NCBI GenBank assembly: GCA_965178125.1
Contig: OZ237750.1
Span: 744,001-808,000, forward strand
Direction: 5' to 3'
DNA from: Bilabrum cf. latius
Lineage: Eukaryota
DNA length: 64,000 bases
The first letter of the stretch is position 1, and each line of letters begins with the position of its first letter. Below the pieces are notes generated by a model that was given only the letters and a program-made list of their open reading frames with translations, ran no database searches and was not told the DNA's origin. The position numbers and the translations under genes were made by a program. Below, in pieces: positions 1 through 60,198 of the stretch.

Positions 1-3000
1 TCGCTGATTCATGCCAGCATGGAGAGCCCTCGATATATCTTCTGGGTTCAAAAACACCAGCAGGCTATCCTACTCCCCGAGGCCAGCCGTAGCACCCGCG
101 GCGTGCAGGAGCGCGACTTTGTTCAGGCGGCCGGACAGCAAAGATGACTGTGCAATGGCGGTGGCCTCGTCAAGCGTTCCGCAGCAGGGAATCCATGAAA
201 CGAGCCCGGAGACGGCGGGTGCAAACACTAGATCGTACATCAGCATCGCAAGAAGCATCAGCGGTGCGGTGAAGAGGAACGAGAAACCCTACGATATCCA
301 GAACGTCCACATGACCGAGGAGATCACATCAGGACCATTTCTTGCTCCGAAATCGACAACAATGAAAAGGGCGCCAGCCGCAACCGTAGCGAGCACAAAT
401 AACGTGCAGCCGGCAAAATAACTGAAATGCAAACAGCTTTTCTCCTATCCTTGCAGTGTCCCCAAGACGGCGGCATGCATGGCCTTGTCCTCAAAGATCT
501 CTTCTAGAATCTCGTCCACCTCATCGACACTAGGAGCACCGGCTTCAGTGGCCCTGCGAATGCGTGTTGATCGCACTGCTTGGCTTGCTGAGCTGTCACT
601 AGATGAATAAGCCGGGGGGGAGCCCGCTTCAGACTGGGCCTCGCTCTCAGACCTTGACCGGATCTCGGGGGCGAGTGCTGCCTCCAATTGCAGCCGGGGC
701 ATATTACATACTGCCGCATACTACTGCGTGGATAGTGAACCGAGCCCCGCGCCGCTAACAGCTTTACCCTGGTCTTGGCCTGTCGCTGTGCCGCCACCAA
801 CAGGCGTCTCGCCGGAGGTGCGAGGGAGAGAAGCATCGGTGGTTTCATAGCTGCCGGCATTGCCAAGGTGCTTACCCTCAGTAGCCCCCCCCGACGGGTC
901 ACAGGTCTACCCGTCGGGGGGGGTAGATGTAGCCGGCGCTGCTGCCCCGGAGCTGCTTGGTGCGTCCATTCCTTTGCCAGATTCTGGGGTCGATTTGGAG
1001 TCCCCGGTTTCGGGGCTTGCAGGATCAGATCCTGACCCTGACTTGGCAATTGCGCCACCCTCAGTGGAACTTGTATCGTGGGCTGTCATGCTGCCGCCAC
1101 GTGCTGAACCTTTTCCGAGGTCAGGAAAACTCGCCCTGGTAACTCTGTCACCATCATCGCCATCGCCTGGCACACCTTCGTGGCTTCTATCAGACCCAAA
1201 CACATCAGCAGCAGGAGCCCTGGGACTCTCGATTGCAATGTCTTCTACGGCCGCGATGAGCCCGTCCTCGTCTGAGCTAGATGCAGAACCAGCGGCTGAG
1301 TTGTCGCGACCAGGTTGCCTCGCGCCAAGCCTACTTTTGTTCGGGAATCGATTAGCCAGTTTTGGTGTTGAATGTTCCCAGTCACTTAGTTTAGTCTTTG
1401 TCCTCCGTGCACTTCTTCCAGAGCGGCCAAATGCAGCCTACGGGTCTTCATCTTCGCTGCTTTGGGCGGAAGGCAGCATTATTCCACTTTCTTGCCAAGG
1501 GCCGGACATCCCAGCAGCTCCTCTAGTCACTTGTACCTCAGTAAGCTCCGAGTCAGGATCATCGCCGAGCTCCTCCTGTTCTCTGGCGAGATCCCTGGTG
1601 CCAAGCAGTTCGGGCTGCCTGATGGCGCACACGCACCTCAAGTCGTCCATGAGGCCCCAATCCCAGCAGTCACAAAGCAAGCACGATTCATGCCCCTAGA
1701 CTGCGTCTCTAGCAGGCACACGCGGTGCAATTGGTCTGTCATGTAGCACACTTCGAGGGGCTGGAGCTGGCCCAACTCTGCCAGAACCATGTTCCGAGTG
1801 CAATGGGACTTCATGGCTACTACTGCTCACACCCGTACCTGCAGGACCCAAATTATCAGTACAGGCCTGCATTCGAATAGAAGCAGCTCGAGTATCGCGT
1901 CGAATGTGACAGCATCCGTAAGGCCGTCCGTGCGCAGCAAACTGTTGCATCAAAAACAGATTGCGCTGACTTGGGAGCCGGTTACAGCAGCAAACCAGGC
2001 AAGGGCATGCACGGATGCAGCATTCAGGCGCGTTCGTCCACCCAAGCTCCGATGCAACCACCTCATCCGGAAGACGATCCATGACTGCGGCTGCCGGAGA
2101 CGCGCTTGGCCTCAATTCACCCGAGCAACAGATACCACACGAGGCATACGTGGAGGCTCTTGGGCCATTCACACGCTCTCGTGACTTTGACAGCAGCTAT
2201 ATGATCGTATCTGGGCTCCTGCTTTCCTCTGGTAGTGCCAAGAGCACGTTCATATCTTCCAAGATGGAGGCTTGGTGAACAATCTCTGCTTCCAAATCCC
2301 ACAGACGTTGCTCGCGTGATGCGGGGGAGAGGCACGGCCCAAATAAGTCTGCGCATCTCCATGACCACACGAGCTAGCAACAGCTCAATTCAAAACGAGA
2401 CTGACGAACCAGCTCGTCTCCGTAGTCTCGCAAACTTCGGAGGAAGCGCAGCCGTTGGGAAAACTGGTATTGCCGAATCTGAACGATCGCAAGAAGCAAG
2501 ATGTTGGGCTCATCCTGCTAATCAGGCGCCTCAAGTCGAGTAGCAGAGGTCCTGCTTAGTTCCCGCTGGTTCATTGTCTCCAGAACCTCCTATCTTCTTT
2601 CTCTCTCATGTGCTACAGCCTCAGCGAAACTCTGGGCAGAGCTTTCACTGCTTCCCAACAATACCGAAAGCCTCCTTAATTGCTAATAGTAAGCGTCTGC
2701 CACAGGTGAGTCGGTCCGAATGACCCAGTTTGCGAGTGAGTAGCGGAGCATCACCAACTTGTCGCGCATCTGTCCAACTGTACGACCCATGCGGAGCTCT
2801 GCCACGCGACGGACCTCAAGCTCACGCCATATCGGAAGCAGATTAGATCTCATCCATACGGCGCGTATGAACGAGGTCAAAGCAGTCAATAATGATTCGC
2901 CAAGCAACTGTATGCATGAGGCAGCGAGCGAAAATGCGAGCCGCTCCTACAGTGGGATGGAGCGGAAGTCGTTAATCAATTCCAGCGTCATCAGCCCCTG

Positions 3001-6000
3001 AGACGCGGTACAACAACACAACAAATGCAAGAGACAGCAGCGTAGATACAAGTAGCTATGCAAGCCTGAACGTCCTCCCGTATGCGGGCTGATACATAGT
3101 AAAAACCGCGAGGTACAGGTGATGGAACGGCAGCCGTATGCAGCAGAGGCAGAGCAAGTCTCTAGAGAGCTACCAGGCCAGACACACGGAGCCGGTTGGG
3201 AGATTTGATAGCCCCACAAGCCTATTATCTGCATGGTTTACTCCCTCGATACTGCTCCTCCCAAGAGCAGGGGCGATAGTGCCAGCTGCAGATAGCTGCG
3301 GACTGCCACCACGATGGGGTCCAACAGATGGGGCTGGCGCCGGAGTTGAACCACTGCAGCTGTCTGCAGCAAGGCATGTATTCTACTGCTCAACGAAGCG
3401 CGCTACTTTTCCTAGGTATTGCATCGAATCTGTGAAGAACTTCACTGAAGCTACCGGCTATTTGGTGCTCGAATCACTCCTAGAAGAAGGAGCCAGTGGC
3501 CCAGCAGGAGTGGACGTCCGGTGTTCCACATTTCCTGCGCCACCAGCTGATACTAAACCACCTGGTGACCTAGCACCTGACGCGGTGACATCGTTGGCTG
3601 GCTGCGGCGCTTGCGAGCCGCCTTCCTACGCTGGGGTTACCTCACGGCCGAGGCATGTGCAGCAGTTCTCGAGTCCGCTGCACCAGTTGTCGAGGTAGGC
3701 CACGCAGCAGCCACCAGGGTCCTTTGCAGGTGACTATTGCTATGAAAACATTCGAACACCTGGAATCTTTGACTCGAGGTGCGGATACAATGTTGCAAGG
3801 TAATGCTGCTGCGAGTCTTGCACTTGTGGTCTACTCCCCCCACGGGACGAGCCAGCAAGTCCAGGTTCGCGCACTAAAGGACTACCAGAGTTCTCGCGAT
3901 GCAAGCCAGTATGCTCACAATTTGATGGCAATTGGGCAGTGCCTATAGTCCCAATAGCGCGTTCTGACCCATTGGAACGGGCGCTAGACATACCTGCTGG
4001 CACGCTACGTGACGAGTTGTGCCCCCCAGCGATAGCTTGCATTGCCACTGTTGCGATACGCACCGCTTCATCAATCCCGTCATCAGAATTCTGTCTCAAC
4101 GCTTCACTCAGCAGCTCATTGCTACCCTCTAGGCGGATGAGGTCGTGAACCACTGCCACTTCTGGGTCCCGAACCAAGCGACGAATGAAAAGCACGCGGT
4201 CACGACGGTCTAAGCAAAGCACCACGGCACCCAGCAAGCCAAACAAGAGCAGCAGGGAGCCCAGGGTGACTATAAGGTAGGAGCTCTGTGATTGGTTGGC
4301 TAGTGCCGGTTGGAGAGTTTCCAACCTAAAAGTCTGTGTCTCCGTTCTTGCTAGCAATTCCAAGCGACTCGAGAAATCGGTCAGATGTGAGCACCTGCAC
4401 ACGATACCGCCACTCAATACGGATACGGCGAGACAGCCCTCTCCTGACCAGCCCCCCTTCTCTTCGTCCCAGAAAACGCAGGCAGCTGACTCCACCTCAA
4501 CGGTGCTGCTGAACTCCTACCGGCTCTGATTGGCACTGAGTGGCACACCACACTGATCCGGAAAGCTTAGTGAAACGTTGTGTTTTACAGATGGGAGCTC
4601 CGGGATGACATCACCGTCGATAGCCAGCACTTGCTTGCTAAGAATTGCATCTGACGCAAGCTAGCGGCGCTTGGCACCAGTACTAGCTGCGGCTGGCAGC
4701 AGTAAGCAAACCTGCAGACCAACGTCTGCGATATCAATAGGGGAGCCGTCGCTTGCAGCAAGAAGATTCACAGATACTGTCGGCCCGCTTCTTCCACCTA
4801 AGGAAACAACTTCAGTCGTACGCGATACGTTCCCAGTAATCGTCAGCACACCTTCTGCATCTCGTGGAGCGCTTGCTAAGGTGCTGATTTGTAAGAGTGC
4901 CCCGTCCAAGTCTTCATCAACAATGGTCTGCACATCCGGCAGTCCAATAGCATCTTCTATGCCTGCAGTAGCTACTGAATGTGGGCTGGTATCGACGCCC
5001 CACTTTGTTGCTACCGCATCCACTCCTTCGCGTAGCAGTTGCACGAGCAGCTGCCTTCTCATACTAGGCAACGCAAAGTCTGCCAGGTTAGCTGCTGTGA
5101 GACTGACAAGCGCCATCCCGTACCCAAGTACATCAGCATTTCTAGTCCTCTCCAGTAATCCGGCGGTTCCATTGCATAACTACCCTACTAAGTCCAACAT
5201 ATCACTGTTCCCACCGGGATTGGTGGGCGCACGTGACAGGACGCCCAAGACCGGTCTACCGCCAACCTGTGACTCTATACCAAGAAGGTCCAGCCTACCT
5301 GCAGCGAGCGAGAGACCATCTCCGATGCCCTCGATAACACGAGGTAGCTCACCGGGGACTGCGTCAGCTAGCATCGATCGACCGAGCAACTGCGAGAAAT
5401 GAGAGATTTCGGTGGATGTCCCGTTATCAATTGCACCGAGCTTATCGGACAACTTGGCGGCTTGAGCAATCGACGAGAGTGCAAGTAGCACACTAGCAGC
5501 AGTCTCAGCACCCACTGCAGGAACGTCAGCCGGCTCAACTCTCCGAGAAAGTAGCGTTCCGGTGGATGCCAGTGCGCCTCGGAGCAGCACATCGCTGGCG
5601 CTAGCTACGGATGAATCGAGCACCGCCACGACTGCCTAAGATGAAACCTGCAAGTTCACATCAGATGGTGTTGACTAGGACGTTGTATCAGCCAATACCT
5701 TGACAACGTTCTCCCGCGCACTAATGAGAAGGTCAGAGGCAGTATTGTCGGGACCATCTACTGGCTCGTACGCCACCAACGTCTCAGAGGCTGTTCTCGT
5801 GCGTAGCAAAGCCTTCTCGGGATTGAAGACTGCAGCACTGAGTCTAGCAGTCTGTAGCTGAGTCTCAACAACCCGGACTACGCCTCCTATATCAGCTGCT
5901 TCTTGTACAGTGAAGGTGGGTCTCACTATCACATGCGCAATGGCCACACCACGACTGCGCATCTAGTCAGTAGCAACGACGATAACGGTCATATTTACAA

Positions 6001-9000
6001 GACTCTGCTAGGCCTGCCGCGAACGGGGCATTGTGAATCTGACCAAACTTGCCGTGCTCTGCGCCACAGCAGGACGCACTGAGGGAAGCCGCAGGAGATC
6101 GTCGATGGATTTGCCAGGACCTGCTACATCTACGCTCGTTGTCGGCACAGATAGCGTCTCAGAGCTGGCGTAGTACGAGAATTGCAACGGAAAATCCAGA
6201 GCAGAATCCGTCCATCCACTAGTCCGTACCTGCACCTCATCCAGCAAAGCTCTAGGCTAGCCACCGAGAGCATTCAACCCAGAATCCGCAAGCTCAACCG
6301 TAACCCGCCCTCCGGTCGGCGGTGAGTTCACCACGATGCGCGCAGAGGCTTTGGAGCTAGCAAGTGATCCAGAAACACTATCAGTGGAGGATTGAAGTGA
6401 AACAGAGGCTGTAAACTCGTACAACTTTCCCGGTTGCAACACGCCGCCGGCCAGCACCAGCCGTCGCTGGGTTGTTGAAGTAAGGACAGCATTTGGTGCA
6501 TCTGGTGCGGAAGAGTTGGCTGGAACCGACAGGCCAGAGCCAGCAATTGCGGGCCCAGCCGTTTGCATCCAACGAAGTGACAACCCAAACTCGGTGAGGG
6601 GCTACTCTGCATCGCCAGGTCGCACACCACTGACTACAGCTTCGAGAACGAGTCTTCTGGACGATGAGACCACTACTGCTAGACGGTTTGAGTCATAGCG
6701 TCTTGGCGAGATATTTGAGGTTGAAATCTCGATGCTGGGAAGACTTTGCTCTACGATCGATACAGATGATTCTGTGTATCCTGTCTAAACGGCAGAAGAA
6801 GGCCCACCAGCTGACTCGTTCACGCCCAAGGCCTGCAAGCCGGATGTAATTGTTGCTCCTATGACGGCAGTGTACCCCACGGCAGATCGCGCAAATGACT
6901 CACTCAGCGTCGCCCTGTCAAATGAGACCGATAACTCTGAACTGCAGTTGCGCTCCTGTGGAGCCTCGACTGATTCTGTCTCTCCAAGCAGCAACACAGC
7001 TGTGCAGTTCCATCGAACTGTGACTGCAGTCTCGAAATCCGCTGAATCATACCCGATGTCCACGATGCCCGTGTCAGCATCACTAGGTGCAAAATCAGGG
7101 TCGATGGTTTCCGAAAGCCGCACCTCGATGGCGCGATCGCCCGGTACAGACCTGCCTCCACCTTCGAGCTCCACCTGTAGCTCCTGGCGGCCAACCTCGA
7201 TCACGTGCAGCTACCAAGCATCCGTGATGAACGAGGCAGGCAACTCGATGATCGAACCGATAGTGGAGTTAAAACTCGCGACAAAGGCCCTTACAGCGAA
7301 TGCATACGTGTGAAGAGCACGAAGGGCGGAACCCGGCACATTAATGACAGGGTTGCCACGCTTGACAGAGCTTACTGCCTTGAGACCGCTGAATCCCGCA
7401 GTAGCAGTCCACCATGCCGCTGAACTCAGATTATGATGCAGCTTGTCCACATTTGAGATGTTCCCTAGAATGGTGTTGTCCTCCTTGAGTGCCAGGCGTC
7501 CGAGCTAGACCTCAGTGAAAAAGTCTGCGACATGGGCGTCTTCGGGCAAATCTCTCGGTCTGAAAGCTGGCAGCAATCTACGCGAAGCTTCGTCAGCAGA
7601 CAGAAGAGACGAGGGTGTTCCAAGCAGTTGTCTCCATTCTACCGCTACAACCAACTGGGTACCCAGTACCACCGTTGGCAAGACGCACAGGTCTACTTGG
7701 GATCCAATCGGAAACGGTGCCCCTCTGAAACGGAGCTGTGCACTAGTAAGGGCGTCCTGAAAATGCACTGTGGGGAGGGACACCACGTCAATATCTGCTC
7801 CTGCAAACTGCCACGGGTATTGCATGGCGCGGACATTCCAGTCGCTCTGCGAAATCGAAGCCACGCCTGGCTCAAAGACTCGAGCCGCCACCCGCACGGT
7901 AGCTGCGTAGCCTGGTACGATCCTAGCTAGACGAATTGCAATGAAAGGACCATCACCACCTTGTTCGACAATAGCAGACGATGCACCGTCAGAGTTCATT
8001 TCCATCTAAATCTACGCGATATTCGACTGAGTTTCTGCTACTCTAAACAGCAAAGTGTTCGCCTGCTGCACTGCAGTTCCAAGGCTAACGGAGGCCGCGG
8101 GATCCGTGGGCGGCGTCGTGATCTCAATGCTCCACTGTGTCTAATACGACTGTACCACCCCGCCACCTCTAGACCCACTTGCATTGAATCTTGCTGCATC
8201 CCCGCAAAGTGTAAATAAGCCCTACGATGCAGTCACAGCAGCTGTCAACGGCTGCGGTTGCGGAGACACTACCGGAGTTACTGAAGGAGTCGCAGTCGGT
8301 GAAGGCGAAGCCGAAATAGAAGGTGGAGGCGTGAATGTACTGGGAGCCACCCGTACATCAACAATGTACACTGCGCCAGCAGCATCGAGCTATCCTGAGA
8401 AGCTTGTTCTAGTCGCTCCGAAGACAAAGCGACCGAAAGCCCTCGAGGGTGGGCGCGACACGAATGCCATGGAATTCGCATCGAAAACGTCGTAGTCTGG
8501 TTCCTAATCAGAGTCAAGCATTGCTACCAGACTATTGGTTCTATGCGATATCTCCAATACGGAAATCACTGTCCTGTTGTGTGGGTCTATTTCCAGCAAG
8601 AATACACCGCCTCGGATCTCATCGGCAGCCACTCGACGAGCCGACACAGCAATGACCGGGCGGCCGGAGCCGTAAAAGTCTCCAAGTGGCACTATCGCTC
8701 TTGCAAACTCGGTAGGCACCTATCCTGCAGGCCCTGGGTCTGGAAAAAGCGAAGATGGAAATCCACCGAGTCCATCGCCAATCACCACAGAGCTGCCGTC
8801 GACGTGCACTTGCCCGGAAGCGCCCTCTATTGAGCCACTTGAAGGCTCCGTAACATTTAGCACGGTCAGCACAAGTATCACGTCCTCTGTTGTTCCAACA
8901 TACAGATCGTGGGCAGTGGGTGGCGCTCCAAGATATGACACCGGCTGAGCAGTGAGGCCCGCTAGTGTTGTGGTCGATTCAATGCCACCGTACTGCATGA

Positions 9001-12000
9001 CATGCAGTTCACTGAAAAACCCCACCGTATCATCATCATTCAGGGCTAGCACGTGCAGCGACTAAGCTCGGTTTGTGCTTGCTACTAGATCGTACAGACC
9101 GTCACCGGTGACATCGCCCAATGTAGCAATGCTTTGGAACCATGTGGTACCAGCGGGCCCGACTGAGCTGGGCGGTTCCCAAGTCGTCTCGTGCAAGACA
9201 CTGCCGTTCGGCTACAGCCTCCAGATCCACAGCTTGCCAACTGATGCTCGCCCGCCGACTGGAGAGTTCGGTGCGCCTACAAATAGGCGCGGTGTGGACG
9301 GGTTAATACCAAGTGGCTGCCCATGCGGCATACTAGCCAGCGTGTGCAGTCCATCTACACCTGTGGCAAGCGTGGTCACATTCTGAATGATTCCGTTTCG
9401 TTTGAGGAAGAGGACGCGAATTTGAGTCGGGATTGGATTCCCACCCGAATTCAGCTGCGTTGTCACCACGTCATCCACACCGTCCTAGTTCAAGTCACCG
9501 ATACTTTCCAGTCTAGAGCCGAAGTTCGCGTTTGCACTGAGACCAAGTGCACCTGCCTCGGCAGCAGAATTGGGGACCCTCCTTGCCTCAACCACAGAGC
9601 CGACGTCCCCAGCTGTGGATGGGCTCGGGCTCGGGCTCGGGCTCGTTGATGTGGAGGGACTTGGGGACACGGAAGCAGAAGGGCTAGGCGAGAATGCTGC
9701 AGAGTTCGCGCATACATCGATGGTGAAAATTGCCCCACCATGCAATGCCATCGGGTGGTCGAATAGCCTGGCGCCCACTACAAAACGCCCGACAGCATAT
9801 GCGGGAGTTTCCTCAAAAAAGGCAAGACCAGATCCAAAATCTGCCGCGGTCCTATTCTCTAGCCTCCACTCTGCAACTCCCACTAAATCTTGAATGGCCG
9901 AGCTGCTGCGATACGACACCTCGGTAACATTTTTCACCGTACGGCTCGATGAGTCCAGCTGAAGCAGGAAGATTCCTCCCACCCTTGGTATGGAGCTCAC
10001 CAAGGAAGTCATCGATGCTGCAATGACCGGCTATGTGCCTCCAAACGCGTACCCAACGTATGCTAAAGACGTACCAAATCTGTTTTGCACTCCTGGGAAG
10101 TGCTCATCCGATAAGCCTCCATGACCACGACCAATCGTCACTACATTGCCCGAGATGTGTACGGCTCCTGGGTGGGTATTGGCCAGGTGTGGAGCCGGGG
10201 CAGTGGCATTCAGTAGCTTAACGACAAACAGAACGCCCCTGTTAGAATCTGCCGTAGTATCTCCGATGAAAAGGTCGTGGGCCAGCGGGTTCTAGTGAAT
10301 CTCTTCTCCTATGCTTCGAATAGCCAGCAGGCTAGCGTTCGGGTACATCTGCGGTACCGAGAGGTCCGCAGCTCGGATCTCGCTGAAGAACTAGACGCTG
10401 TCATCGGCCGCCAGAGACAGGATGAATACTGACTGTCGGCCCGCAGCGCCCACAGCCAGGTCGTGCAGCCCGTCACCCGACACGTCGCCCATGGATGTCA
10501 GCGCGGAACCGAACTCAGCCCCAGAAGCGAGGTTGGCGGGCAGCGACCACACCCTCTCTCCGTACACCACACCGGAAGATCTCAGCCGCCAGCTGTACAG
10601 CTCACCCGCATTGGACGATGCCCCCACGTGCTTCTGCGAGAGACCTGCAAACAGCCTGGAAACGCTAGGGTCTTCGCCGAGAGGCTAGCCGTCCGGCATA
10701 GCAGCCACTGGCAGGTATAGCCAGCCAGCTTGTACAAATCCGGGCCCTACCCCGCTAGAACCTGCTGTTAAGCTGGAAATGTTTTTTGGAATTCCTTCAG
10801 AGTCCGGGAACATGACAAGAATCTCAGCTTGCTGTGTCGAAGAGTTGCGGCCTATTGGAAGGGACACTGCGAGATCGCCCACCCCATCGCTGTTCAAATC
10901 CCCAATGTTTGCTACCCCGGCACCAAAACGAGACGAGGGTCTTAGCCCAAGTGCTTCCGCCTCGGCATCAGATGCAGGATACCTGCGCGCAGATACAACT
11001 GAGCCTATGCTTCCAGGTGTGCAAGGCGACTGTGACGGCGACGTAGTCGAAGCGGGCTGTGTCGCAGACAGACTTCGCACTCCTTCATTCCGTCCACACG
11101 TGGTGACTCCATATACTAGTTGGGTCGACTAGCTAGGCCCTGGCAACGACAAACCATGGCAAGACGTTGTGAATGCGTCGGAATCGCAGAAATCGCGCGT
11201 GCGGTCCTTAATCCGTGTGGCTGACTTCACCGCGCCGTTTGAATGCATGGCCAAAAGCCATCCCACCCCTTTACCCCGTACGCAATTGTATCCTCGAGTC
11301 GTTGCTACAGCAATGTCAGGCACACCGTCCAGGTCCAGGTCACCCACTGCAGCCAGGGCTGAGCCAAAGCGGTCGCCGTCATCCAGTGACCCTGTGAATC
11401 CCCCGGTCGTGCCGGAGATCTTCTAATGTGCCTTGACCGTTCCGTTTGCGTGCAATAGCAGCATCCACACTGCACCCCGTGCATTGCCAACGCCATCGTC
11501 CGGGATGGCGCCCACCGCCAGGTCCTGGAGCCCGTCCCCGTCCAGGTCGAGTGAAGCCAAGGCCACTCCGAAAATGTTCAGGCTGTTCAAGATGCCAGCG
11601 AACCCCCCCTGCATGCCAGATATCTTCTAGTGTCGTAGCACAGTCCCTGTCACATTCATGAACAGGATCCACACCGCACCCCTTCCCCTTCCCCTTCCCC
11701 TTCCCCTCCCCCCCCCCACACCCCGGTCAATATCACCAGGTGCTCCGACGGCCAACTCCGGGACGCCGTCACTGTTTAGATCTCCCATGTTGGTCAGCGC
11801 CTGTCCGAACAAGTCGCCATCGTAGAGTTCGCCCGTAAAGTTCCCCTCCGTGCTGGATATCTTCTGATGTGACCTGACTGTCCCGTTGCCCCGAAGGATC
11901 AGCACCCACACAGCCCCCCGGTTAGCTCCTGCGGCACCGCCGTCATCGTCTCCGGGCGCGCCCACCGCCAGATCAGGTACACCATCCAAATTTATGTCAC

Positions 12001-12616
12001 CACAACTAGCAACGGAAGCCCCGAATCGATCCTAGTGTGCAAGGTCGCCGCCTCTGAACCTGCCTGAAGGGCTTGAGATATCATGCTGGCCTTGGACGCT
12101 CTTATCCCGGTTGAGAAATAAAATCTAGACAGCGCCGTGGCGAGGCGTCTAGACACAATTGAAGCTAGCCCCAACAACAATGTCTATTTCACCATTGCCG
12201 TCTACATCGCCGAGAACCCCTGCTGCTCTCCCGCACTAGCTTCTCGATACAAACGAAAAGGCGGTCCCAATATCAATTATGTCGCCAAGATTCCCTAGTT
12301 TGGCCCGCAATGAATCCCAGTGAACTATATCGACTCTATGATGAGACTTCGAGTGGGCTGTTGTGCTGCATAGCGGCGAAGTTGTCGCATCGCGGCTGCT
12401 GGATGGCGGTCCGCTAGCACTCATCAACATAGGCCCGGGGGTTTTGTGTGCAACACTCCTACGGCCATGCTCGTAATATTGACCAAAATGTTCTACCTTG
12501 CTTGCAAAAGCAGCCATCGAATCCTTCTATCGCGACCAGGACCGGCTCAAGCTGGCAATAATCGCTATCAACATCAATGGCGCTGTCGACCAGCTGCGCA
12601 GGAAAACGGGGCGCAT
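1..12616 (-). CDS. Giant polycystin-1-like cell-surface receptor (>4,200 aa, 3' end outside window): signal peptide, multiple FG-GAP/integrin-alpha beta-propeller modules, REJ-like region, GPS motif, multi-pass TM region; needs TAG=Gln and one frameshift near 2972-2998
   Basis: About 20 ORF-track fragments from 3740 to 12790 share one frame and each ends in TAG; I found no TAA/TGA in that frame from 12616 to 2975. FG-GAP motifs (GDLNSDGVPELAVGAP, GDLDLDGVPDIAV, GDVSGDGLHDLAVGA), REJ-like VNSPPTGG and GWTD..FPLQFSYY, GPS CVFWDEEKGGWSGEGC...CRCSHLTDFS (~4370-4480) followed by TM helices. The reading continues in the adjacent frame (~2990 to <1), again interrupted only by TAG. Start ATG uncertain (12616 or 12637). 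Confidence 0.85.
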
Positions 12617-13930
12617 CCGCCATTGAATCTTTGACATCAAGTATAATCCTTCTCTGGCAAACTCTCTGGAACGTCCTGCGATCGTAGTGAGCGAAATACT
12701 CCCGAAGGGTTCAGGTTCTATTCTGCGGATTTGCATCGATGCTGTCGGGACATCTGGCACAGAATCCCAATAAAATGAGGGGAGATTCATAGTCTCATTA
12801 GGTTGCCAAGTGTTGTACTATGTGCGAGCGCTTCAATTGGGCTTCTCGGCGGAATCTAGTCTTACAGAGTGGGTCGATTAGCTCTGTAGCATACAGCGAT
12901 ACTCTGTGCCAAAAATGAAAGCCCAGCTGCGATAATTTAATATTATCAAAGTTGAATATAGCGGAGAATGGGCAGTGCGCCGTCATTTAAGTGGAATTCA
13001 TGCACAGCAAATCGAACCGTGGGCACGCGCACCTGACGCAGATGTCCACCGTTCTGCTCGACTTGAACAATGCTGCCAATGAATGAATTCTTACTTCAAT
13101 TTTTTTCAGAGTCCCTTCGCCTGAGGTCTTAGGGTCCAAGAAACGAGAGAGCGAAGTGACGTGCATGCTGATGCTACCATTGTCATCACACGGTTTGGTT
13201 GCCGGCGGTCGCAAGCACAGCAGGCGGTAGTCGCATTATCCAGATGAAACGAAAACATTGCGCGAGGCGAAAGTGAGAGAGATAGGAAAAGATCAAGCTG
13301 CTGACACGCTGGTTGGCAGCCCCAAAGCAATAGCAAGATCCTGTGGCCCAGGCTGGCACGCTTCGGCGAGGGGGGCACCGAGCTGCACGATACCTCTGCA
13401 GTTTTGCGGGAAGCGTCGGCCATCCCCCGCGCGCATTGATGTATTCATAGCTGACAGTATCTGCCACATGGGCGATTCTATGAGGCCCAGACACAATCGC
13501 CACGAGGGTGCAGCCACTGCACTGCAGTGTAGCTTGGAGCACAACTCCTGCAGGTGCATAGGCATGTCTCACAAGTAAGTGTGCAGCTCCTTAGCCGAGC
13601 ATCAGCATTTGCAAACACCTACCGCGTCTAATCTGGTCACCAGGGAACCCTACTCTTAAGTGGGCGTGGTCGGCGACCATTGGTCGCCTGTTGGTCGCCA
13701 AGTTTTTCTCTCATTGTAACGTGTACTATCTGTTCTGTTTTGGTTTCGAATAATATTTTGTACCTGCACGAACAACCCTGACCTCCCTCATAAAAACAAA
13801 TCTACAAGTAGACACCAGGCTCTGTAAGGTCTAGTTATAACTAATTGTTATACTTCTGAGCTGCCCGCCTTCGTTGGGAAGCCAGTACCATTTCAGGGTG
13901 GCACACCACTGATTTCTGGGAAGGTTCCTG

Positions 13931-18964: not shown

Positions 18965-19078
18965 AAGTGCACTCTGTGCAGGAAATTGTGATACGAATAC
19001 TTGAATGCGACTGTTAGACCGCCATTTTTGTAGATTTAGGAAGAATGCAGATCATCGCATTGCGCGGGCGGGCAACCG

Positions 19079-30055: not shown

Positions 30056-30207
30056 GGAGGACGGTTGTACGGATGCGTTCGCGTGGTGTTGGCGCCGCGC
30101 AGAGTCCCGCTCGGTATGGTTCCGCAATCGCCATCAGTATTCCGTTGCCTCCACTAACCATCGTTGCTTCGCATTTTCTCAGCCACGGGTTTTGTTAATA
30201 TTCACGC

Positions 30208-42296: not shown

Positions 42297-45200
42297 ATGA
42301 AAATAAAAGAATAGTTTAAGTGGAGGCTGTCCGTGAGATATCTCAGTGATTCTCGTGCTTCGTAAACAAACTTGAGGGCATTTGTTGGATGCAATTCCGG
42401 CTACAGTTGATTTTAACTTTCGCAGTTATAGCAGGCGATCAAGACTGGCAGGGCAAAGAAATCCAATGATAGAATACACGCTGCCTCGTGCGGAATGACA
42501 ACAGTGGGATAGCTCGGGCCAGGCTTCAGAGCTGCAGCCGTACAGCAACTGCTGCTAGGCCACAATCGGTTGGAGAACGCAAAGGGACTTCAGCAGTTCA
42601 TTAACCTCAGGAAATTGTCTCTAGCTGGAAATCTCATGCGAGACGAAGACGACTTCTTGCCATACTTGAGAAACTTGCGGTGCTTGTCACATCTCTCCAT
42701 TCGGGGTAACGCTGTCGCCCGGCTGCCAGACACCCGACTCAAAGTTGTCGCTGCCCTGCCTTAGCTACAATGCATTGATGGTTGCGTGAGAGTTAAAGGA
42801 AGCTGCCTCCCTCAACACTGCTCGTCGAAGTCAATCGAGTGTAGCTTGATCCAACCGCATGCTGCAAACGATCGCAGGATATCAAGGACAGCGAACGGCA
42901 TCTAGCCAGCGCGCTGTGGCAGCGGTCTACGAGACTTGTGAATCGAGTGTGTGCTGCATTGTATAGGGCCGATCGGCTCATCGCAGCCTGCGGCACCATC
43001 CGCGCGCACGCCGAGCTCAGGCGCCGGGTGGACCAGGACGGGGCCAGGTTCTGCCTGCCGCCGGGTGTGGGCATGCCCAGGCCGAGCCCTTTTCGTCCCA
43101 ATGTCGGTGCAATTATGGAAGTTTTGATGAATGAACCGCCTACTGGTGAGAGTCCAGCGCTCCTGTGTGACGCGTTTCAGTTGGCTAGCTGTCTTGCTCC
43201 AGGGTGCCGCGTGGCCGTGTCTTCCTACTTGACCCTGTCCCGATGAACGCTCCTCTGCTTGTTTCTGTGCCGCAGAAACGTTTGTGAACAGTGCCAGGCG
43301 CAGAGTTCGCCAGGCCATCGCTGCATTGTTCGAGAAAGCTGCAGCAAGGAACCGCCGGCTGCTTCGTAAGGCATCGAGTAGAAAGGCGACGGGCAGAGCT
43401 GCTGCTGCCGGGGCACCGACACAGGCACATGGAACCACAGGAGAAATTGCGGAGCACAGGCCCAACCATCGTGGCCTGAAGACTCGCCCGGCAGTGCCAA
43501 CTGCAGCTGCATCTGAGTCCCACTCAAAACAAGCGAGCATAGGTGACCCACAGAGTGGTCCTGCCAAGGGACAGGGGAGGCGGTAGAAGCGCGCAAACGC
43601 AGCAAGCGTGACCGGCCCTGGACCTGATCTTGCCGTGCCATCGCCATAGCCGACGTATGCGAGCCTTGCTGCAGGTCGCGAAAGACAACGACTGCAGCGG
43701 GTGTCCCCTGGGTCCGACAGCGCACCGCGAGGCAAAGCTCCGCCGCCCAAAGCGAGCGCAAGTAGCCGAGGCGCACTAGATGCAGATCCGTTGGACGGCT
43801 TGCCCGAGATCAGCTCTTCCACCGTGTCCCCAGAGCTGGCGGCGCTGCACAGGGCCCAGGCACGAGTGCTCGCCAACGCGCTCGATGCGGAGGCCGAGGC
43901 TTTGCGGGCCTGCGAGCGAGAGGCTGATCGGGACTTCCTCATGCAGAAACAGGTGGCTAGCAGAGACCCTGGAGGCCTGCGGGATGCAGTTATCGAGCAA
44001 GAAAGCAGACAGCGGCACAGGCTGCGTGCCATTGAGATGCTCGATCGCCGACACGCAGCTCGGCAAGGGCGCATGAGTGCCGCCAGTTCCGGCGCAGGGT
44101 AGACCCTGCACGCTCCCGATGGTGATGTTGGAAAGGGAATAGAGACAGCCGCTGGCGACCACGGGACGATCGCGAGCAGCAGTGGTACCGGGGCCAAAGC
44201 GGCAAAGGTGCACCCCGCGGGCTCCCTAGCTGCAAGTTCATCAGAACGGGGGGTTCCAAGTATACAATTGGCTAGGCATCGTTCACCCAAGTCTACAGCT
44301 ACAGGCGGACCGCGTAAAAGGGACGGTGCTCTGCAGCTCAAGGCATCCAAGGTATCAGCTGCGTTCTTGGATGGACCAATAGACCCAGTCGAGGCCAGCA
44401 GATATCGCGGACAAGGTCGTGCAGGTATTTAGGCCGCAACTGGCAGAAGCTACGGGCGGCGACCATCGTCGCAACGAGGGTCCCCAGCCCGCTCCCCGCG
44501 CCCTAGGTCTCACAGTGCAGCTGTTTACCAACAGGAAGTCTCGTCCCCGCCTCATCCACGGCCATTCCCCTCTACTGCGGCGCCCATGCCTCTTCACCGT
44601 CCCAATATACGCTCACATGTGGTTCAGGCAAAACAAGTGGCAAGCAAGGGGCGCCTTGTTCATGACAGTGGGACGATACGAGCAACTGGGACGCTCAAGC
44701 CGGGCATGGACTTCGAGGCACGGACATGGCGCACGGATGATTTCGGCACACCTAGCACCGCATCTACTCAAGGGCGCCGTCCGAGCCCCGAACAGGATGC
44801 CCGTGCTACTCTCCGTGCTAGCGGCCACTTGCCCTGGCTTGATGGTGAGCTTACGCAGCGCCTGCCCACCTCGCTCTGCGCGATGCAGCGCCAGATCGTC
44901 AGCATGGACCATGCTCTGTAGCGGGAGAGGCGGCGCAGGCATGATCGAGACACGCAGCATAGGATCGGACAGATGCAGCTGCTTTCAAGGCACGGGACTT
45001 CCCATGGCGATAGCAGTCCTGTGGTCATGCAGCGTGAGTCCAACAGACCGCCTCGAGAGGACGTGATTCAATCAGGTTTACTTCCAGCAGACAGAGCTGA
45101 TGCGTCTCCCACTGTGCCGAGGGGTGCAAGTGATCAAGAAGGACGAGTCAAGTGTGCGGCCAGCTCTAAGAGCAGTGGAGCTAGCACCTCCGATGAGGGT

Positions 45201-48200
45201 GAAGCTCCTTTGGGCGAGTCCAACACAGCGAGCGCACTACGCGCTGCTACCAATGACCAGTGCGCCTCTGGATCTACAGGGAAGCCATCTGGGACGCTTG
45301 ATCGTGTGGATACCGTGGTGCCAGTGGGGGCATCAAATGGCCCTGCAGGTCAGGATGCCAGCAGCGCAAATGCGGACGTGGACTCGGTGCTGACTCGTAG
45401 GGCTGACTCCAGCTCCCAGGACGCGGCCGAACGTGGCCCAAGCGCCAATGTGCTGGCCAAACCTCGGCCTGCAGCTGACAGATCTCCAGAGACAATTGAT
45501 GAGCAGGACTCTGCAAGAACTCGACAGCTTCACGCAGAGGCGGCCGCACTGTCAGCATCCCGCAGTGGTGTACACTGGTCCGTGCAAGAGCTTCGAGGTG
45601 CCGCGTACATCCCAACGAGGCTGTCGGTCCACAGCAGCGTGCCGACAACCAGCGCTGATCGTGTCCTTATTGCAGCCAGGACGACAGGCTTGCAGCCCGC
45701 GTTTGTTGCAGAGTAGTCCAGGGGGGCCGATGCAGGCAAGACGTCTGGTACATCTGAGCAGCTGCAGGCAGCCGATGAGACACTGGATGATTCCACTCCG
45801 GAGCCTCGCTCCATCGATCGGTTGGCTGTAGCACATGCTGCGGCTGCATTTATCGTGCCTGCGCGACCTCGCCAACGAAAGCTCCTGCCTTGGTCGCCCA
45901 CAAGGAGCAATGCTAGCGTCGCCCCGCGGAGCGTACATGCTGCTGAAGCGCCTGGTGTCCAGGACGGCACCGGGGTGGAGGCATCCGTTGCGGCTACTGG
46001 TGTCCAGGACGGCACCGGGGTGGAGGCATCCGTTGCGGCTACTGGTGTCCAGGACGGCACCGGGGTGGAGGCATCCGTTGCGGCTACTGGTGTCCAGGAC
46101 GGCACCGGGGTGGAGGCATCCGTTGCGGCTACTGGTGTCCAGGACGGCACCGGGGTGGAGGCATCCGTTGCGGCTACTGGTGTCCAGGACGGCACCGGGG
46201 TGGAGGCATCCGTTGCGGCTACTGGTGCCCAGGAGGAAATCGCCGCGTAGCGATCCATGTCACCTAATGCACCCAGTGAGCATCTTGCCTAGGTGGAGGC
46301 TGGGTCGCCGCAAATAAGTATGCCTGGCTCCAGCGCACCACCTAGTGAGTCGATTGCCACCTAGCGTGATGCATTGGACTAGCTGCCATCGGGCAGTTCA
46401 ACAATGCCCCCGCCTCCTGCTCGGGCACCAGAGGTCCAGTAGGTTGAGTCTCGCGCGTGTGACGCACTGCCAAGCGTGCCCACAGCCGAAATCCGGGACC
46501 CTGCAGGCTGGGCCTAGCCATGGTTGGCTACAAAAGCGACAGATACGGTAGCCGCGGCGGTATCTTCCAGCGTGACAGCCGCTGTTGCTTCCGCACTCAG
46601 CACAATTTAGGGCGTGCATGCAGATGCATACACGGGTCAGACTAGACCGGTTGCATCTACTGCAGCGCAGCTGCTGCCTGCAGCTGTTGCTGCCTCTGAA
46701 CGACAGACACGTGGCTATTCTTGCGCTCCCATGTCTGAGGGTGGCGATGCTCCAGCTGAGCCTGACGATGATCAGGGCATGCATAGCAAACAGGGCAGTG
46801 ATGAGCATGCCACTGCAATGAAGCGCCGCTCAAGGCAGAATCTACGGGCTGCCGCTGCCGCTGTCGTTCGAGCCAGGGTGGTTAGGCTTGGGCGGCAGAC
46901 GCTGAGACGAATGCGGAGCGAGCTGATGCGCAGGTTGCTGCAGGCGAACAGCGTCACCTAGGCGACAAGTCCGAGCAGCGCATCCAGGGAAGTGGGGGGG
47001 GCCATTCCCGCAGAACATGCAACGGATGCCGTGGTAGCACCATCGCGTACATCGGAGAGTGCTGTGCTGAAGCAAGGAGGCCCCCTTTCTGAGACACCCC
47101 CGAGGGCCATGCTCGGCAAGAGATTGCCGCACCGTCTGCATGCAAGCCCGCCCAAGGCAGCCCCATTGCCAAGATGCAAGACAGCCGCGAGTACTCTCCA
47201 TGATGTTAGTAGTGGCGGTGTGTCTGCCAAGCAGGCTGCCATGCCTGCTACACGCTTGCCAGTGCATCCCGAACCAGATGAATAGCTCAGCCCATCAGTA
47301 GTAGAAGAAAGCTGCCCGACTTCCATTCCGCAAGATGACAGTGCATCTTCTACAGCAGAGCCGTAGGTTTCTCTGCCACCTGGGACAGGCCCCAGCGGTG
47401 TGGAAGGTCCGGCAGGAGAGTCCCCTGTCAGTCGGAGCGCCCCTGCGAAATAGCAGTCGCTTGACAGGATGTAGCTAGAAAAAGAGGCCAGTTCTGGAGA
47501 AGGCGCGGGAGCTAGAACTAGGATTGACTTGCGATTGGTCAGGCGCGCATTCAAACAGCCAGATCGTGCTAGCAATGGGATGCGTCTCCATGCACAGTCG
47601 CCCTCCGAGAAAGCAAGGGCCCGGCTGGCTGCCCATCGTGTGGCAAGGCAATGGGACGGGAGCGATCACGTGAGGGATGCCGGTGATATACAGCACTCGC
47701 AGAGCAAAAGCGCCGTTGCCCAACGCGCCGGTGGAAAAGCTGCCTTATCCCAGCCGAGTGCCGACCCTGAGGTCGCCGTTCTTCGAAGCGGTGAATCCTC
47801 AGCGGCAAGGCTACATCGAATGCGAGCCGAAGCCGCGCTCGCCACTGCTCTGCACCGGGCCATGCGACAACAGCTGACGGCATCCACTGCGGCTCTGCTA
47901 TAGGAGAGCACTGCTCGGGACCAGCTAGAGAAGAAGCAGAGGGACCTGCAGAGTCGCAGCAACGCCCTCGCTAGACACGCTGCTGCGCTTCAGGAGCAGC
48001 TGGAAATGGCTCGCAGGGAGGCTGCAGATGCCACGATCAGCGCGGCCACGGGTGCAAGGAGCTTTAGTCGGAGCCTCGGGGTGGCCAGGCAGGCCACAGC
48101 ACGAGCAGAGAGCGAGCGAAATCGCTTGCAGGTATCTCTGGAGAGGGTACTGGAGGCTGCGACGGAGCAGCGGGGCAGGGCTGCGGCCCAGCTGGATACC

Positions 48201-48509
48201 ATGCAGAGGATGGCGATATCGGCGCAGCAGCGCGTCGCCCGCGCGGAGCACCAGATGCGGCGGGCTGCTGCGGCGGCCAGAGCCGTGATTGGGCGCTCGG
48301 ACAATCAGCGGCTGCAGGCGCAGGCGGCTGCCGCCGCTTGTAAACGCGCGTAGGCCGTCGCTGTAGCTGCTCAGCGGAGTGCCGAGGCTCGGCGAGCTGA
48401 GGCTGAAGAGGCCATGCAATCTGCTCGCATGCGATACGAGGCCGCGGAAGACGCACTGTTCGAGCACCGCCGTCTGGCAGCTTTGCAGCGTGGAACGTCT
48501 CGGTCATGA
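42297..48509 (+). CDS. Leucine-rich-repeat (SDS22/U2A'-type with LRRcap) protein with long disordered middle and C-terminal coiled coil (~1,950 aa); 3 introns; possibly centriolar/ciliary
   Basis: LLLGHNRLENAKGLQQFINLRKLSLAGNLM..LSIRGNAV..KVVAALP*LQCIDGCDIKDSERHLA; introns 42333-42425, ~42786-42877, ~43146-43275; downstream ORFs in one frame joined by TAG; TGA 48507-48509. Confidence 0.75.
45954..46234 (+). repeat. 45-bp perfect coding tandem repeat x6 (GVQDGTGVEASVAAT)
   Basis: Unit ggtgtccaggacggcaccggggtggaggcatccgttgcggctact occurs six times identically, plus a partial copy. Confidence 0.97.

Positions 48510-60167: not shown

Positions 60168-60198
<31 letters not shown>

What the first reader, a model, noticed from the sequence alone, without database searches (positions are those of the whole stretch)
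11423..11866. Internal repeats of one gene swap CAG for TAG at the same position
Three consecutive FG-GAP repeats read GTVRSH-Q-KISSTEG (CAG at 11864-11866), GTVLRH-*-KISGMQG (TAG at 11627-11629) and GTVKAH-*-KISGTTG (TAG at 11423-11425). This is database-free evidence that TAG is synonymous with CAG (Gln).
Basis: seen in the sequence. Interest (0 to 1): 0.8.

Follow-up and report, generated by a model that had tools for sequence, protein, structure and literature searches.

The report
TAG codon read as glutamine
In this GC-rich protist genome the usual stop codon TAG sits many times inside working genes and is most likely read as glutamine, a rare but already known kind of change to the genetic code.

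Summary
On the minus strand, three consecutive FG-GAP repeats read H-CAG-KIS (11864-11866), H-TAG-KIS (11627-11629) and H-TAG-KIS (11423-11425). The codons differ only in the first base.

The repeats alone are weak, mixed evidence. In the same repeats TAG also sits in a conserved Trp column (12125-12127) and opposite Arg and Gly/Leu.

- TAG is a sense codon: 16 long ORFs hold 135 in-frame TAG, 0 TGA and 0 TAA in 16,982 codons. Thirteen end in TGA and two in TAA.
- Two relatives share the trait: a syntenic metagenome contig and a set of ORF fragments from a public run assembly.
- At 15 TAG sites in well-conserved ortholog context the partner residue is Gln 8, Lys 3, and Arg, Met, Leu, Ser 1 each. 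Gln beats the next amino acid by about 10^8 in likelihood.
- Five of 6 relative fragments stop exactly where the window has TAG.
- TAA stays a stop.

The code is therefore TAG = Gln with TAA and TGA as stops. This kind is known from Iotanema and two ciliates. Here it occurs in an unplaced, GC-rich, intron-poor flagellate lineage. The tRNA and release-factor basis is inferred, not seen.

The parts
11864..11866 (-). CAG (Gln) in FG-GAP repeat unit 2, motif HQKIS
11627..11629 (-). In-frame TAG in unit 3, same column (H-TAG-KIS)
11423..11425 (-). In-frame TAG in unit 4, same column (H-TAG-KIS). DNA-level paralog of the CAG at 11864.
12125..12127 (-). In-frame TAG in degenerate unit 1, in the column where the other 4 units have TGG (Trp). 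A caveat to the repeat argument.
11150..12190 (-). Block of five FG-GAP repeat units (347 codons, 5 TAG, 6 CAG/CAA)
   Evidence: Pfam FG-GAP E 5.3e-33; count
2972..12637 (-). Long coding frame of the FG-GAP / REJ / GPS membrane protein: 41 in-frame TAG, no TGA. Likely start ATG 12635-12637. The frame closes at TAA 2972-2974, but the gene may continue into ORF 1..3234.
12676..12865 (-). 190-nt GT..AG intron upstream of the start codon. The ATG at 12790 that opens the mechanical ORF lies inside it.
   Evidence: joint 12674->12865 in run X6; GT and AG ends
10685..10687 (-). TAG aligned to Gln in the relative's ortholog fragment P0126 (local identity 0.75)
10391..10393 (-). TAG aligned to Gln in P0126 (local identity 0.94)
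7211..7213 (-). TAG aligned to Gln in P0127 (local identity 1.00)
5180..5182 (-). TAG aligned to Gln in P0128 (local identity 0.88)
6785..6787 (-). TAG aligned to Lys in P0127 (local identity 0.81)
6602..6604 (-). TAG at which the relative's ORF fragment P0127 ends. The same holds at 4661-4663 (P0128), 7505-7507 (P0132), 6008-6010 (P0131) and 5675-5677 (P0134).
53558..53560 (+). The only TAG in IFT140; aligned to AAG (Lys) in L001
51770..51772 (+). CAG in IFT140 aligned to TAG in L001. The same holds for CAG 52301-52303 (IFT140), CAG 49891-49893 (asparaginase, minus strand) and CAA 48417-48419 (ORF 43284..48509).
48685..48687 (-). TAA stop of the asparaginase gene, at the position where the L001 ortholog stops with TGA

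Best explanation
The window is nuclear DNA of a GC-rich, intron-poor, flagellated eukaryote. Its genetic code reads TAG as an ordinary glutamine codon and keeps TGA (the main stop) and TAA as stops. The two TAGs in the FG-GAP repeats are Gln codons that differ from the CAG of the neighbouring repeat by one C/T transition.

Shown: TAG is in frame and frequent; it exchanges chiefly with CAG/CAA in orthologs; two relatives share the trait; TAA and TGA are kept out of coding frames.

Inferred from other organisms with this code (Panek et al. 2017, PMC5304391, section 9 read): decoding needs a tRNA-Gln with anticodon CUA, which pairs with UAG but not UAA. It probably arose from a tRNA-Gln(CUG) copy. 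An eRF1 with weakened UAG recognition is also expected. Neither lies in the window.

TAG behaves as a non-preferred codon. It makes up 1-6% of Gln-plus-TAG codons in the high-GC3 conserved genes and up to 31% in the FG-GAP/REJ gene.
For: (1) TAG is sense. Dropping TAG as a stop lengthens the longest frame from 748 to 3,286 codons. Sixteen long ORFs with 16,982 codons hold 135 TAG, 0 TGA and 0 TAA in frame. The two other frames hold 155-160 TAG, 262-355 TGA and 37-50 TAA. Ten of these ORFs carry Pfam domains: FG-GAP/REJ/GPS, SRCR, EF-hand, GH20, PAN, GH59, S28, asparaginase, IFT140 and a methyltransferase.

(2) ORF ends: TGA 13 and TAA 2 of 15 complete ends.

(3) Relative L001 is a syntenic 8,154-bp metagenome contig, 75-78% amino-acid identity in IFT140 and asparaginase. 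It also has in-frame TAGs: 2, 3 and 10 in its three ORFs.

(4) A second relative is six ORF fragments at 56-90% identity to the FG-GAP/REJ protein. Three of them are listed on a contig of 19,113 bp.

(5) Pooled, 15 TAG sites lie in conserved context (at least 50% identity in the 8 columns on each side). Their partners are Gln 8, Lys 3, and Arg, Met, Leu, Ser 1 each. I scored these with substitution frequencies taken from the same 2,606 columns. The log10 likelihoods are Gln -16.1, Arg -23.9, Lys -25.2, Glu -28.6, Leu -33.6, Trp -42.7 and Tyr -48.8.

(6) Five of 6 close-relative fragments end immediately before a window TAG. The relative therefore has a standard-code stop codon at those sites inside the same gene.

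(7) The asparaginase gene ends with TAA in the window exactly where L001 ends with TGA.

(8) In an alignment of 120 GH20 homologs, Gln is the commonest residue in the column of TAG 29870-29872 (Gln 18, Arg 15, Lys 14 of 120).

(9) Contigs of run X6 carry the TAGs unchanged, with 0 other letters over 1-20000. X6 looks like RNA: a GT..AG joint, and depth of about 75 over the SRCR gene against 8-13 over the FG-GAP gene and 0.65 between them.
Against: The match to Gln is 8 of 15, below the 72% self-conservation of real Gln codons in the same columns.

Lys is over-represented among the non-Gln partners (3 of 7), and I noticed this only after the count. AAG is one step from TAG, which may explain it.

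In poorly conserved context no partner is Gln: 0 of 9 for L001 and 0 of 1 for the fragments. None of 20 alignments to distant fragments (29-45% identity) has Gln. None of 22 in-window paralog alignments (24-31% identity) has Gln.

TAG sits in a Trp column of the FG-GAP repeats. It also sits in a GH20 column that is Trp in 58 of 120 homologs, mostly plants; the 14 nearest homologs have Ser or Gly there.

I chose the context threshold after seeing the first list. Only one window and about 10 kb of relatives were available. No tRNA gene is present in the window or in L001. No peptide evidence exists. The tool labels run X6 'RNA? (probably DNA)'.
Confidence: 0.88

Rival explanations
1. TAG is a sense codon but codes for another amino acid: Lys, Arg, Glu, Leu, Trp or Tyr, as in the UAG=Leu, UAG=Glu or UAR=Tyr codes of other protists.
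For: Lys is the partner at 3 of 15 conserved sites. Two in-window paralog sites pair TAG with Glu. TAG sits in a Trp column of the repeats and in a GH20 column that is Trp in 58 of 120 homologs.
Against: Log10 likelihood relative to Gln is -7.8 for Arg, -9.1 for Lys, -12.5 for Glu, -17.5 for Leu, -26.6 for Trp and -32.7 for Tyr. Trp is 95% self-conserved in the same columns, yet it is never the ortholog partner of TAG (0 of 25). All four visible partner codons in the best contexts are CAG or CAA.
Confidence: 0.04
2. TAG has no dedicated tRNA and is read ambiguously by near-cognate tRNAs, mostly Gln with some Lys or others. Proteins would then be mixtures at TAG sites.
For: There is an excess of Lys among non-Gln partners (3 of 7). 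No tRNA gene was found in 64 kb plus 8 kb. Recalled knowledge, from no call: near-cognate readthrough of UAG in yeast inserts Gln, Tyr and Lys.
Against: At about 8 TAG per 1,000 codons, and 41 in one 3,222-codon frame, inefficient readthrough would yield almost no full-length protein. AAG, TTG and TCG are single-step mutational neighbours of TAG, which accounts for the Lys, Leu and Ser partners without ambiguity. Finding no tRNA gene in 72 kb says nothing either way.
Confidence: 0.05
3. The TAGs are damage: pseudogenes, or C-to-T (RIP-like) decay that turned CAG and TGG into TAG.
For: CAG->TAG and TGG->TAG are both C-to-T-type transitions, and both patterns are seen in the repeats.
Against: The same decay would make TAA (from CAA) and TGA (from TGG and CGA). 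The 16 ORFs have 0 TAA and 0 TGA against 135 TAG. TAG-bearing frames stay open for up to 3,272 codons. Conserved genes (IFT140, S28, GH20) carry TAGs too. A relative keeps a stop-in-standard-code at 5 of the same sites inside an otherwise conserved gene.
Confidence: 0.01
4. The genome has TAG, but the mRNA is edited (U to C) to CAG, so the code itself is standard.
For: Nothing direct. It would equally explain TAG/CAG exchange between orthologs.
Against: Contigs of runs X6 and X8 lie on the region with 0 other letters. X6 shows a spliced GT..AG joint and gene-wise depth steps typical of RNA. Editing would need about 8 precisely targeted sites per kb of coding sequence.
Confidence: 0.02

Closest known systems
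Nuclear code of Iotanema spirale (Fornicata): UAG = Gln, UAA and UGA stops (Panek et al. 2017, PMC5304391; abstract and section 9 read)
   Same: Only UAG is reassigned, and to glutamine. UAA is kept as a stop. The implied mechanism is a tRNA-Gln(CUA) plus a change in eRF1.
   Different: Iotanema uses UAA as its primary stop; here TGA ends 13 of 15 ORFs. The genome here is 60% GC and carries intraflagellar-transport, SRCR, REJ/GPS and lysosomal-hydrolase genes. Its taxonomic position is unresolved and nothing ties it to fornicates. No eRF1 or tRNA was available to compare.
Phyllopharyngean ciliates Hartmannula sinica and Trochilia petrani: UAG = Gln (McGowan et al. 2024, PMC11687900; abstract only)
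   Same: UAG alone is reassigned to Gln, and UAA is kept as a stop.
   Different: In those ciliates UAA is the preferred stop; here it is TGA. Long multi-gene 60% GC DNA with a 190-nt GT..AG intron does not look like a ciliate macronuclear genome. That comparison is my own knowledge, not a call.
NCBI translation table 15 as used by crAss-like phages, TAG = Gln ('genetic code 15'; start of the abstract of PMC9523058, search listing)
   Same: Same codon table: TAG = Gln, TAA and TGA stop.
   Different: Those are phages of bacteria. This is eukaryotic nuclear DNA with IFT140, a spliceosomal-type intron, and SRCR and GPS domains.
Table 6 type codes (ciliates, hexamitin diplomonads, ulvophyte green algae, oxymonads, Amoeboaphelidium): UAA and UAG = Gln (listed in Panek 2017, Fig. 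4 legend)
   Same: UAG is read as Gln.
   Different: TAA is not a sense codon here. There are 0 in-frame TAA in 16,982 codons, against 37-50 in the other frames and about 40 expected if TAA stood to TAG as CAA stands to CAG. One TAA stop is confirmed by an ortholog.
Rhizarian exLh and an uncultivated phyllopharyngean clade: UAG = Leu (PMC5304391 and PMC11687900, abstracts)
   Same: UAG alone is reassigned, and UAA is kept as a stop.
   Different: Leu is the partner at 1 of 15 conserved sites, and its likelihood is 10^17.5 lower than that of Gln.

Membership tests
Genetic code with UAG = Gln and UAA/UGA = stop (NCBI table 15 type) | UAG occurs in frame inside conserved, evidently functional genes | tested here: met
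   135 in-frame TAG in 16 ORFs, 10 of them with Pfam domains. Off-frame and in-frame TAG densities are alike: 155-160 against 135.
Genetic code with UAG = Gln and UAA/UGA = stop (NCBI table 15 type) | UAG aligns with Gln in homologs | tested here: met
   Gln at 8 of 15 ortholog sites in conserved context and 8 of 25 overall. Gln is favoured by 10^7.8 over the next residue. Distant homologs are uninformative.
Genetic code with UAG = Gln and UAA/UGA = stop (NCBI table 15 type) | UAA is not a sense codon | tested here: met
   0 TAA in frame in 16,982 codons against 37 and 50 in the other frames. The asparaginase TAA stop coincides with the TGA stop of the L001 ortholog. This rests on one window only.
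Genetic code with UAG = Gln and UAA/UGA = stop (NCBI table 15 type) | UGA is a stop | tested here: met
   13 of 15 ORF ends are TGA. There are 0 in-frame TGA against 262 and 355 off-frame. The g43284 and IFT140 ends are plausible C-termini, and the L001 g43284 ortholog also ends in TGA a few codons earlier.
Genetic code with UAG = Gln and UAA/UGA = stop (NCBI table 15 type) | A tRNA-Gln with anticodon CUA | not testable with these tools
   No tRNA gene in the window or in L001. No whole genome is held.
Genetic code with UAG = Gln and UAA/UGA = stop (NCBI table 15 type) | eRF1 altered in UAG recognition; Gln found at UAG in peptides | not testable with these tools
   eRF1 is not in the window. 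No proteome is available.
Table 6 type code (UAA and UAG = Gln) | UAA used in frame as a sense codon | tested here: not met
   0 in-frame TAA. Reading through TAA adds only short extensions to the ORFs: 3,286 to 3,336 codons for the longest.
UAG = Leu codes (exLh type) | UAG aligns with Leu in homologs | tested here: not met
   Leu at 1 of 15 conserved sites. Log10 likelihood -33.6 against -16.1 for Gln.
FG-GAP repeat / REJ / GPS (polycystin-1-like) membrane proteins, for the host gene | Pfam FG-GAP, REJ and GPS domains above the gathering score | tested here: met
   FG-GAP 112.8 bits (cut-off 22.1), FG-GAP_3 55.5 (26.9), GPS 43.4 (22.5), REJ 34.2 (25).

The most novel reading that the evidence does not exclude
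The window's organism and at least two relatives seen only in environmental or run assemblies form a so far undescribed clade. They are GC-rich, intron-poor flagellated eukaryotes in which UAG was reassigned to glutamine independently of fornicates and ciliates, with UGA rather than UAA as the main stop. This would be a further case of UAG and UAA being decoupled. It would also be the first in a high-GC genome, where CAG-to-TAG transitions feed the new codon up to about 30% of Gln codons in weakly biased genes.
Probability: 0.45. Interest if true: 0.7.

Novelty: new member of a known kind. Interest (0 to 1): 0.6.

Why it matters
Nuclear codes in which UAG changes meaning while UAA stays a stop are few. 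The abstracts I read name Iotanema, the rhizarian exLh and some phyllopharyngean ciliates. Each case bears on whether the two codons can be told apart by the termination machinery.

A further lineage would add an independent data point for how such codes arise. This one is GC-rich, stops mainly with UGA, and has relatives that share the trait. It would also give a genome in which the predicted tRNA-Gln(CUA) and eRF1 changes can be looked for.

There is a practical consequence. Gene calling with the standard code shatters this organism's genes. The relative's FG-GAP/REJ gene is on record as at least six separate short proteins. Annotation of this genome and of related metagenome contigs needs table 15.

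Tried and rejected
Steps that gave nothing useful:
- In-window paralogs by BLASTP gave 22 TAG partners (Ala 5, Val 5, and others; no Gln) at 24-31% identity. They are too distant to inform.
- Residues next to TAG: Gln is 1.35-1.56x enriched and TAG-TAG pairs at +-2 number 10 against 4.3 expected. The best-fitting neighbour profile was Leu, so the test does not discriminate.
- TAG frequency across genes correlates with A/T-ending codons in general (ACA 0.79, CAA 0.54). It marks codon bias, not amino-acid identity.
- PDB alignments of S28, GH20, asparaginase and IFT140 put TAG or its ortholog sites opposite Phe, Ser, Lys, Leu, Thr, Ala and gaps, all variable positions.
- GH20 homolog search: the best hit is 35% identical and no close relative appeared. 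Two of the 4 TAG columns lie in insertions.
- FG-GAP/REJ search at near length: best hit 33%.
- A metagenome scan with the paralog pair 55730/58254 found no relative. Scans of genome contigs and viral contigs with IFT140 found none.
- No tRNA or Rfam family in the window, and no tRNA in L001.
- No whole genome is held.
- Earlier findings of the scan: nothing in 3 look-ups.
Together with an uninformative GH20 tree, where the query sits on a long branch among unnamed sequences, this leaves the taxonomic position open.
- Sequencing runs: no RNA holder is listed. Runs X1, X5, X6 and X8 carry the stretch with 0 differing letters, so no allelic variation was available to tabulate. Parts of 1-20000 without cover in some runs are not interpreted.

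Literature: four full-text searches listed no GC-rich non-ciliate eukaryote with UAG = Gln. This is no proof that none is in print, and supplements were not seen.
Full report
**1. The observation**

The finding lies on the minus strand. Frame 1 of window 11000-12400 reads five FG-GAP-like units. Three consecutive units contain GTVRSH-Q-KISSTEG, GTVLRH-*-KISGMQG and GTVKAH-*-KISGTTG. The codons are CAG at 11864-11866, TAG at 11627-11629 and TAG at 11423-11425.

The DNA alignment of the units shows CA(T/C)-[C/T]AG-AAG-AT(A/C)-TC(C/T). Only the first base of the codon differs.

In a DNA self-comparison of the whole window, the only paralogous alignment that covers any of the 135 in-frame TAGs is this one: TAG 11423 against CAG 11864, 70% identity over 128 nt.

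I placed the block's 5 TAG and 6 Gln codons at random on 5 x 68 cells. A column with two TAGs plus a Gln codon arose in 0.65% of trials. The caveats are shared ancestry of the two TAGs and selection of the pattern after the fact.

- TAG 12125-12127 sits where the other four units have Trp (GTC TAG ATT against GTG TGG).
- Other TAGs sit opposite Arg and Gly/Leu.

On their own the repeats are therefore mixed evidence.

**2. What the DNA is**

The window is 60% GC. With TAG read through there are long ORFs on both strands. Pfam places them as follows:
- FG-GAP/REJ/GPS: the host gene, ORF 2972..12790, 3,272 codons, 41 TAG
- SRCR
- EF-hand
- GH20 hexosaminidase
- a PAN-domain protein
- GH59 with a ricin lectin domain
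- S28 peptidase
- asparaginase
- IFT140
- a methyltransferase

This is eukaryotic nuclear DNA of a flagellated organism. No tRNA or Rfam family lies in it.

Contigs of run X6 skip 190 nt, with GT..AG ends on the gene's strand, at 12676-12865. The ATG at 12790 that opens the mechanical ORF is therefore intronic. The likely start is ATG 12635-12637, followed by a hydrophobic signal-like stretch.

**3. TAG is a sense codon; TAA and TGA are not**

Removing TAG from the stop set raises the longest frame from 748 to 3,286 codons. Removing TGA, which is more abundant, gives only 1,049.

Counts in the 16 chosen ORFs (16,982 codons):

| Frame | TAG | TGA | TAA |
|---|---|---|---|
| Coding frame | 135 | 0 | 0 |
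| Other frame 1 | 160 | 262 | 37 |
| Other frame 2 | 155 | 355 | 50 |

The zeros follow in part from how ORFs are defined. Frames of this length free of TAA and TGA but full of TAG are still not expected from decay or chance.

Thirteen of 15 complete ORF ends are TGA and two are TAA.

The asparaginase gene ends ...LEAHL-TAA in the window, exactly where the ortholog on L001 ends ...LDAKL-TGA. TAA is therefore a true stop.

The other TAA, at 2972, closes the FG-GAP/REJ frame but may not be the real end of that gene (see section 8).

**4. Which amino acid**

Distant homologs did not help. PDB alignments put TAG opposite variable positions. In-window paralogs are only 24-31% identical. The FG-GAP/REJ and GH20 proteins have no close relative of similar length.

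Two relatives were then found.

*(a) L001.* This is an 8,154-bp metagenome contig, syntenic with window positions of about 45.8-54 kb. IFT140 is 75% and asparaginase 78% identical, and the low-complexity ORF 43284..48509 is 50% identical. L001 is itself interrupted by TAG: 2, 3 and 10 in the three ORFs. At codon level:
- L001 TAG pairs with window CAG at TVNGTC-Q-LSKDAL, at TGVNIK-Q-MHATED and at LDIREI-Q-PLIDSS.
- L001 TAG pairs with window CAA at EAEEAM-Q-SARMRY.
- Window TAG pairs with AAG twice and with CGG once in good context.

*(b) Six ORF fragments.* P0126, P0127, P0128, P0131, P0132 and P0134 are 56-90% identical to the FG-GAP/REJ protein. Three of them are listed on a contig of 19,113 bp. 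Within them, window TAGs pair with Gln four times (10685, 10391, 7211, 5180), and with Lys, Leu, Ser and Arg once each.

Five of the six fragments end immediately before a window TAG: 6602, 4661, 7505, 6008 and 5675. The relative's gene is therefore cut by standard-code stops at those same sites.

*Pooled result.* All 25 ortholog observations give Gln 8, Arg 4, Lys 3, Leu 3, Ala 2, and Gly, Asp, Glu, Met, Ser 1 each. I then kept only sites with at least 50% identity in the eight columns on either side. I set this threshold after seeing the first list, and it dropped 10 sites, none of them Gln. The 15 remaining sites give Gln 8, Lys 3, and Arg, Met, Leu, Ser 1 each.

I scored each amino acid with substitution frequencies from the same 2,606 conserved columns:

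| Amino acid | log10 likelihood |
|---|---|
| Gln | -16.1 |
| Arg | -23.9 |
| Lys | -25.2 |
| Glu | -28.6 |
| Leu | -33.6 |
| Trp | -42.7 |
| Tyr | -48.8 |

In the GH20 alignment Gln is the commonest residue (18 of 120) in the one informative TAG column. A catfish homolog there reads L-Q-N-A against the window's L-TAG-N-A.

**5. Evidence against, and how I read it**

- The Gln match (53%) is lower than for real Gln codons (72%).
- Lys is more frequent than expected among the mismatches.
- TAG appears in a Trp column of the repeats.
- TAG also appears in a GH20 column that is Trp in 58 of 120 homologs, mostly plant sequences. The 14 nearest homologs have Ser or Gly there.
- None of 20 alignments to distant fragments has Gln.

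All the mismatching partners with a visible or inferable codon are consistent with TAG's own single-step neighbours: AAG, TTG, TCG and TGG. I therefore read them as ordinary substitutions into or out of a Gln codon. Ambiguous decoding remains a minor rival.

**6. Rivals**

- *Another amino acid:* rejected by the likelihoods above.
- *Pseudogene or RIP-like decay:* rejected, because TAA and TGA did not accumulate.
- *RNA editing:* unlikely. X6 and X8 contigs carry the TAGs unchanged (0 other letters). X6 behaves like RNA, with a spliced joint and depth of about 75 over the SRCR gene against 8-13 over the FG-GAP gene and 0.65 between them. The tool nonetheless marks its kind as uncertain.

**7. 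Mechanism and comparison**

The code is TAG = Gln with TAA and TGA as stops. This is NCBI table 15, called 'genetic code 15' in the abstract of PMC9523058 (listing).

Among eukaryote nuclei, UAG-only reassignment to Gln is reported for two groups:
- Iotanema spirale (PMC5304391; abstract and section 9 read)
- the ciliates Hartmannula sinica and Trochilia petrani (PMC11687900; abstract)

Section 9 of Panek et al. argues that keeping UAA as a stop leaves CUA as the only possible anticodon. Such a tRNA probably derives from tRNA-Gln(CUG), and eRF1 is expected to change. I adopt this as the inferred mechanism. Neither component could be examined here.

Differences from the known cases:
- TGA, not TAA, is the main stop.
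- The genome is GC-rich.
- TAG is a non-preferred codon. It makes up 1-6% of Gln-plus-TAG codons in high-GC3 genes such as IFT140, PAN, S28 and GH59, and 31% in the FG-GAP/REJ gene.

The taxonomic position stays open.

Four literature searches listed no such organism. That is not proof of absence, and supplements were not seen.

**8. Seen in passing**

The FG-GAP/REJ frame and ORF 1..3234 overlap out of frame. A 58-nt GT..AG interval at 2947-3004 would join them in frame. An X6 contig runs through it unspliced, so this is open.

**Verdict**

It is a new member of a known kind of code change. It is of moderate to good interest, and of more interest if the lineage proves to be undescribed.

Noticed in passing
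window 2940-3240, minus strand: The FG-GAP/REJ/GPS frame (ends TAA 2972) and the next ORF (1..3234, 1,078 codons, transmembrane-like, 13 TAG) overlap out of frame by about 260 nt. A 58-nt interval with GT (3004-3003) and AG (2948-2947) ends would join them in frame into one protein of more than 4,200 residues, polycystin-1-like. A run X6 contig (964-3052) spans the interval unspliced, so it is not confirmed.
   Followed up: partly
window 12676-12865, minus strand: A 190-nt GT..AG intron lies upstream of the start codon of the FG-GAP/REJ gene, seen as a joint in run X6. Genes here otherwise look intron-poor.
   Followed up: partly
window 55730-58021 and 58254-60908, minus strand: A tandem pair of paralogous genes with no Pfam match, 35% identical overall. 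They contain a 30-residue identical block (LFQVLPCSLCKEPWLVVPARGDFRPLLPSE) and a Cys-rich block (GKCY.C.EWGRVARRTCC.ATRH.EC). A metagenome scan with two patterns from the Cys-rich block found no relative.
   Followed up: partly
window 45952-46234 (+) and 33627-33815: Near-perfect tandem repeats. A 45-nt unit x 6.3 (99%) encodes GVQDGTGVEASVAAT inside ORF 43284..48509. A 33-nt unit x 5.7 (98%) lies at 33.6 kb.
   Followed up: no
window 11669-11726, minus strand: A (GGGGAA)-like purine run is inserted in FG-GAP unit 3 and encodes GRGRGRGRGRG. Assemblies of the public runs break there.
   Followed up: no
TAG sites 53558, 48351, 6785 and their orthologs: Among the 7 non-Gln partners of TAG in conserved context, 3 are Lys (AAG where the codon is visible). 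Real Gln codons in the same columns rarely pair with Lys. Either the T/A neighbour AAG feeds TAG, or decoding is not purely Gln.
   Followed up: partly
window 1-20000 in runs X1, X5, X6, X8: Runs filed under four different coded organism names and four studies carry this stretch with no differing letter, apart from one 3-nt deletion at 7114 in a short 34-nt piece of a higher-depth X5 contig. One and the same strain seems to be present in all of them.
   Followed up: no
window 28487-30127, minus strand: The GH20 hexosaminidase ORF matches the catalytic-domain profile only to position 227 of 348, then continues in unrelated sequence. An unrecognised intron or a divergent C-terminal half is possible.
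   Followed up: no
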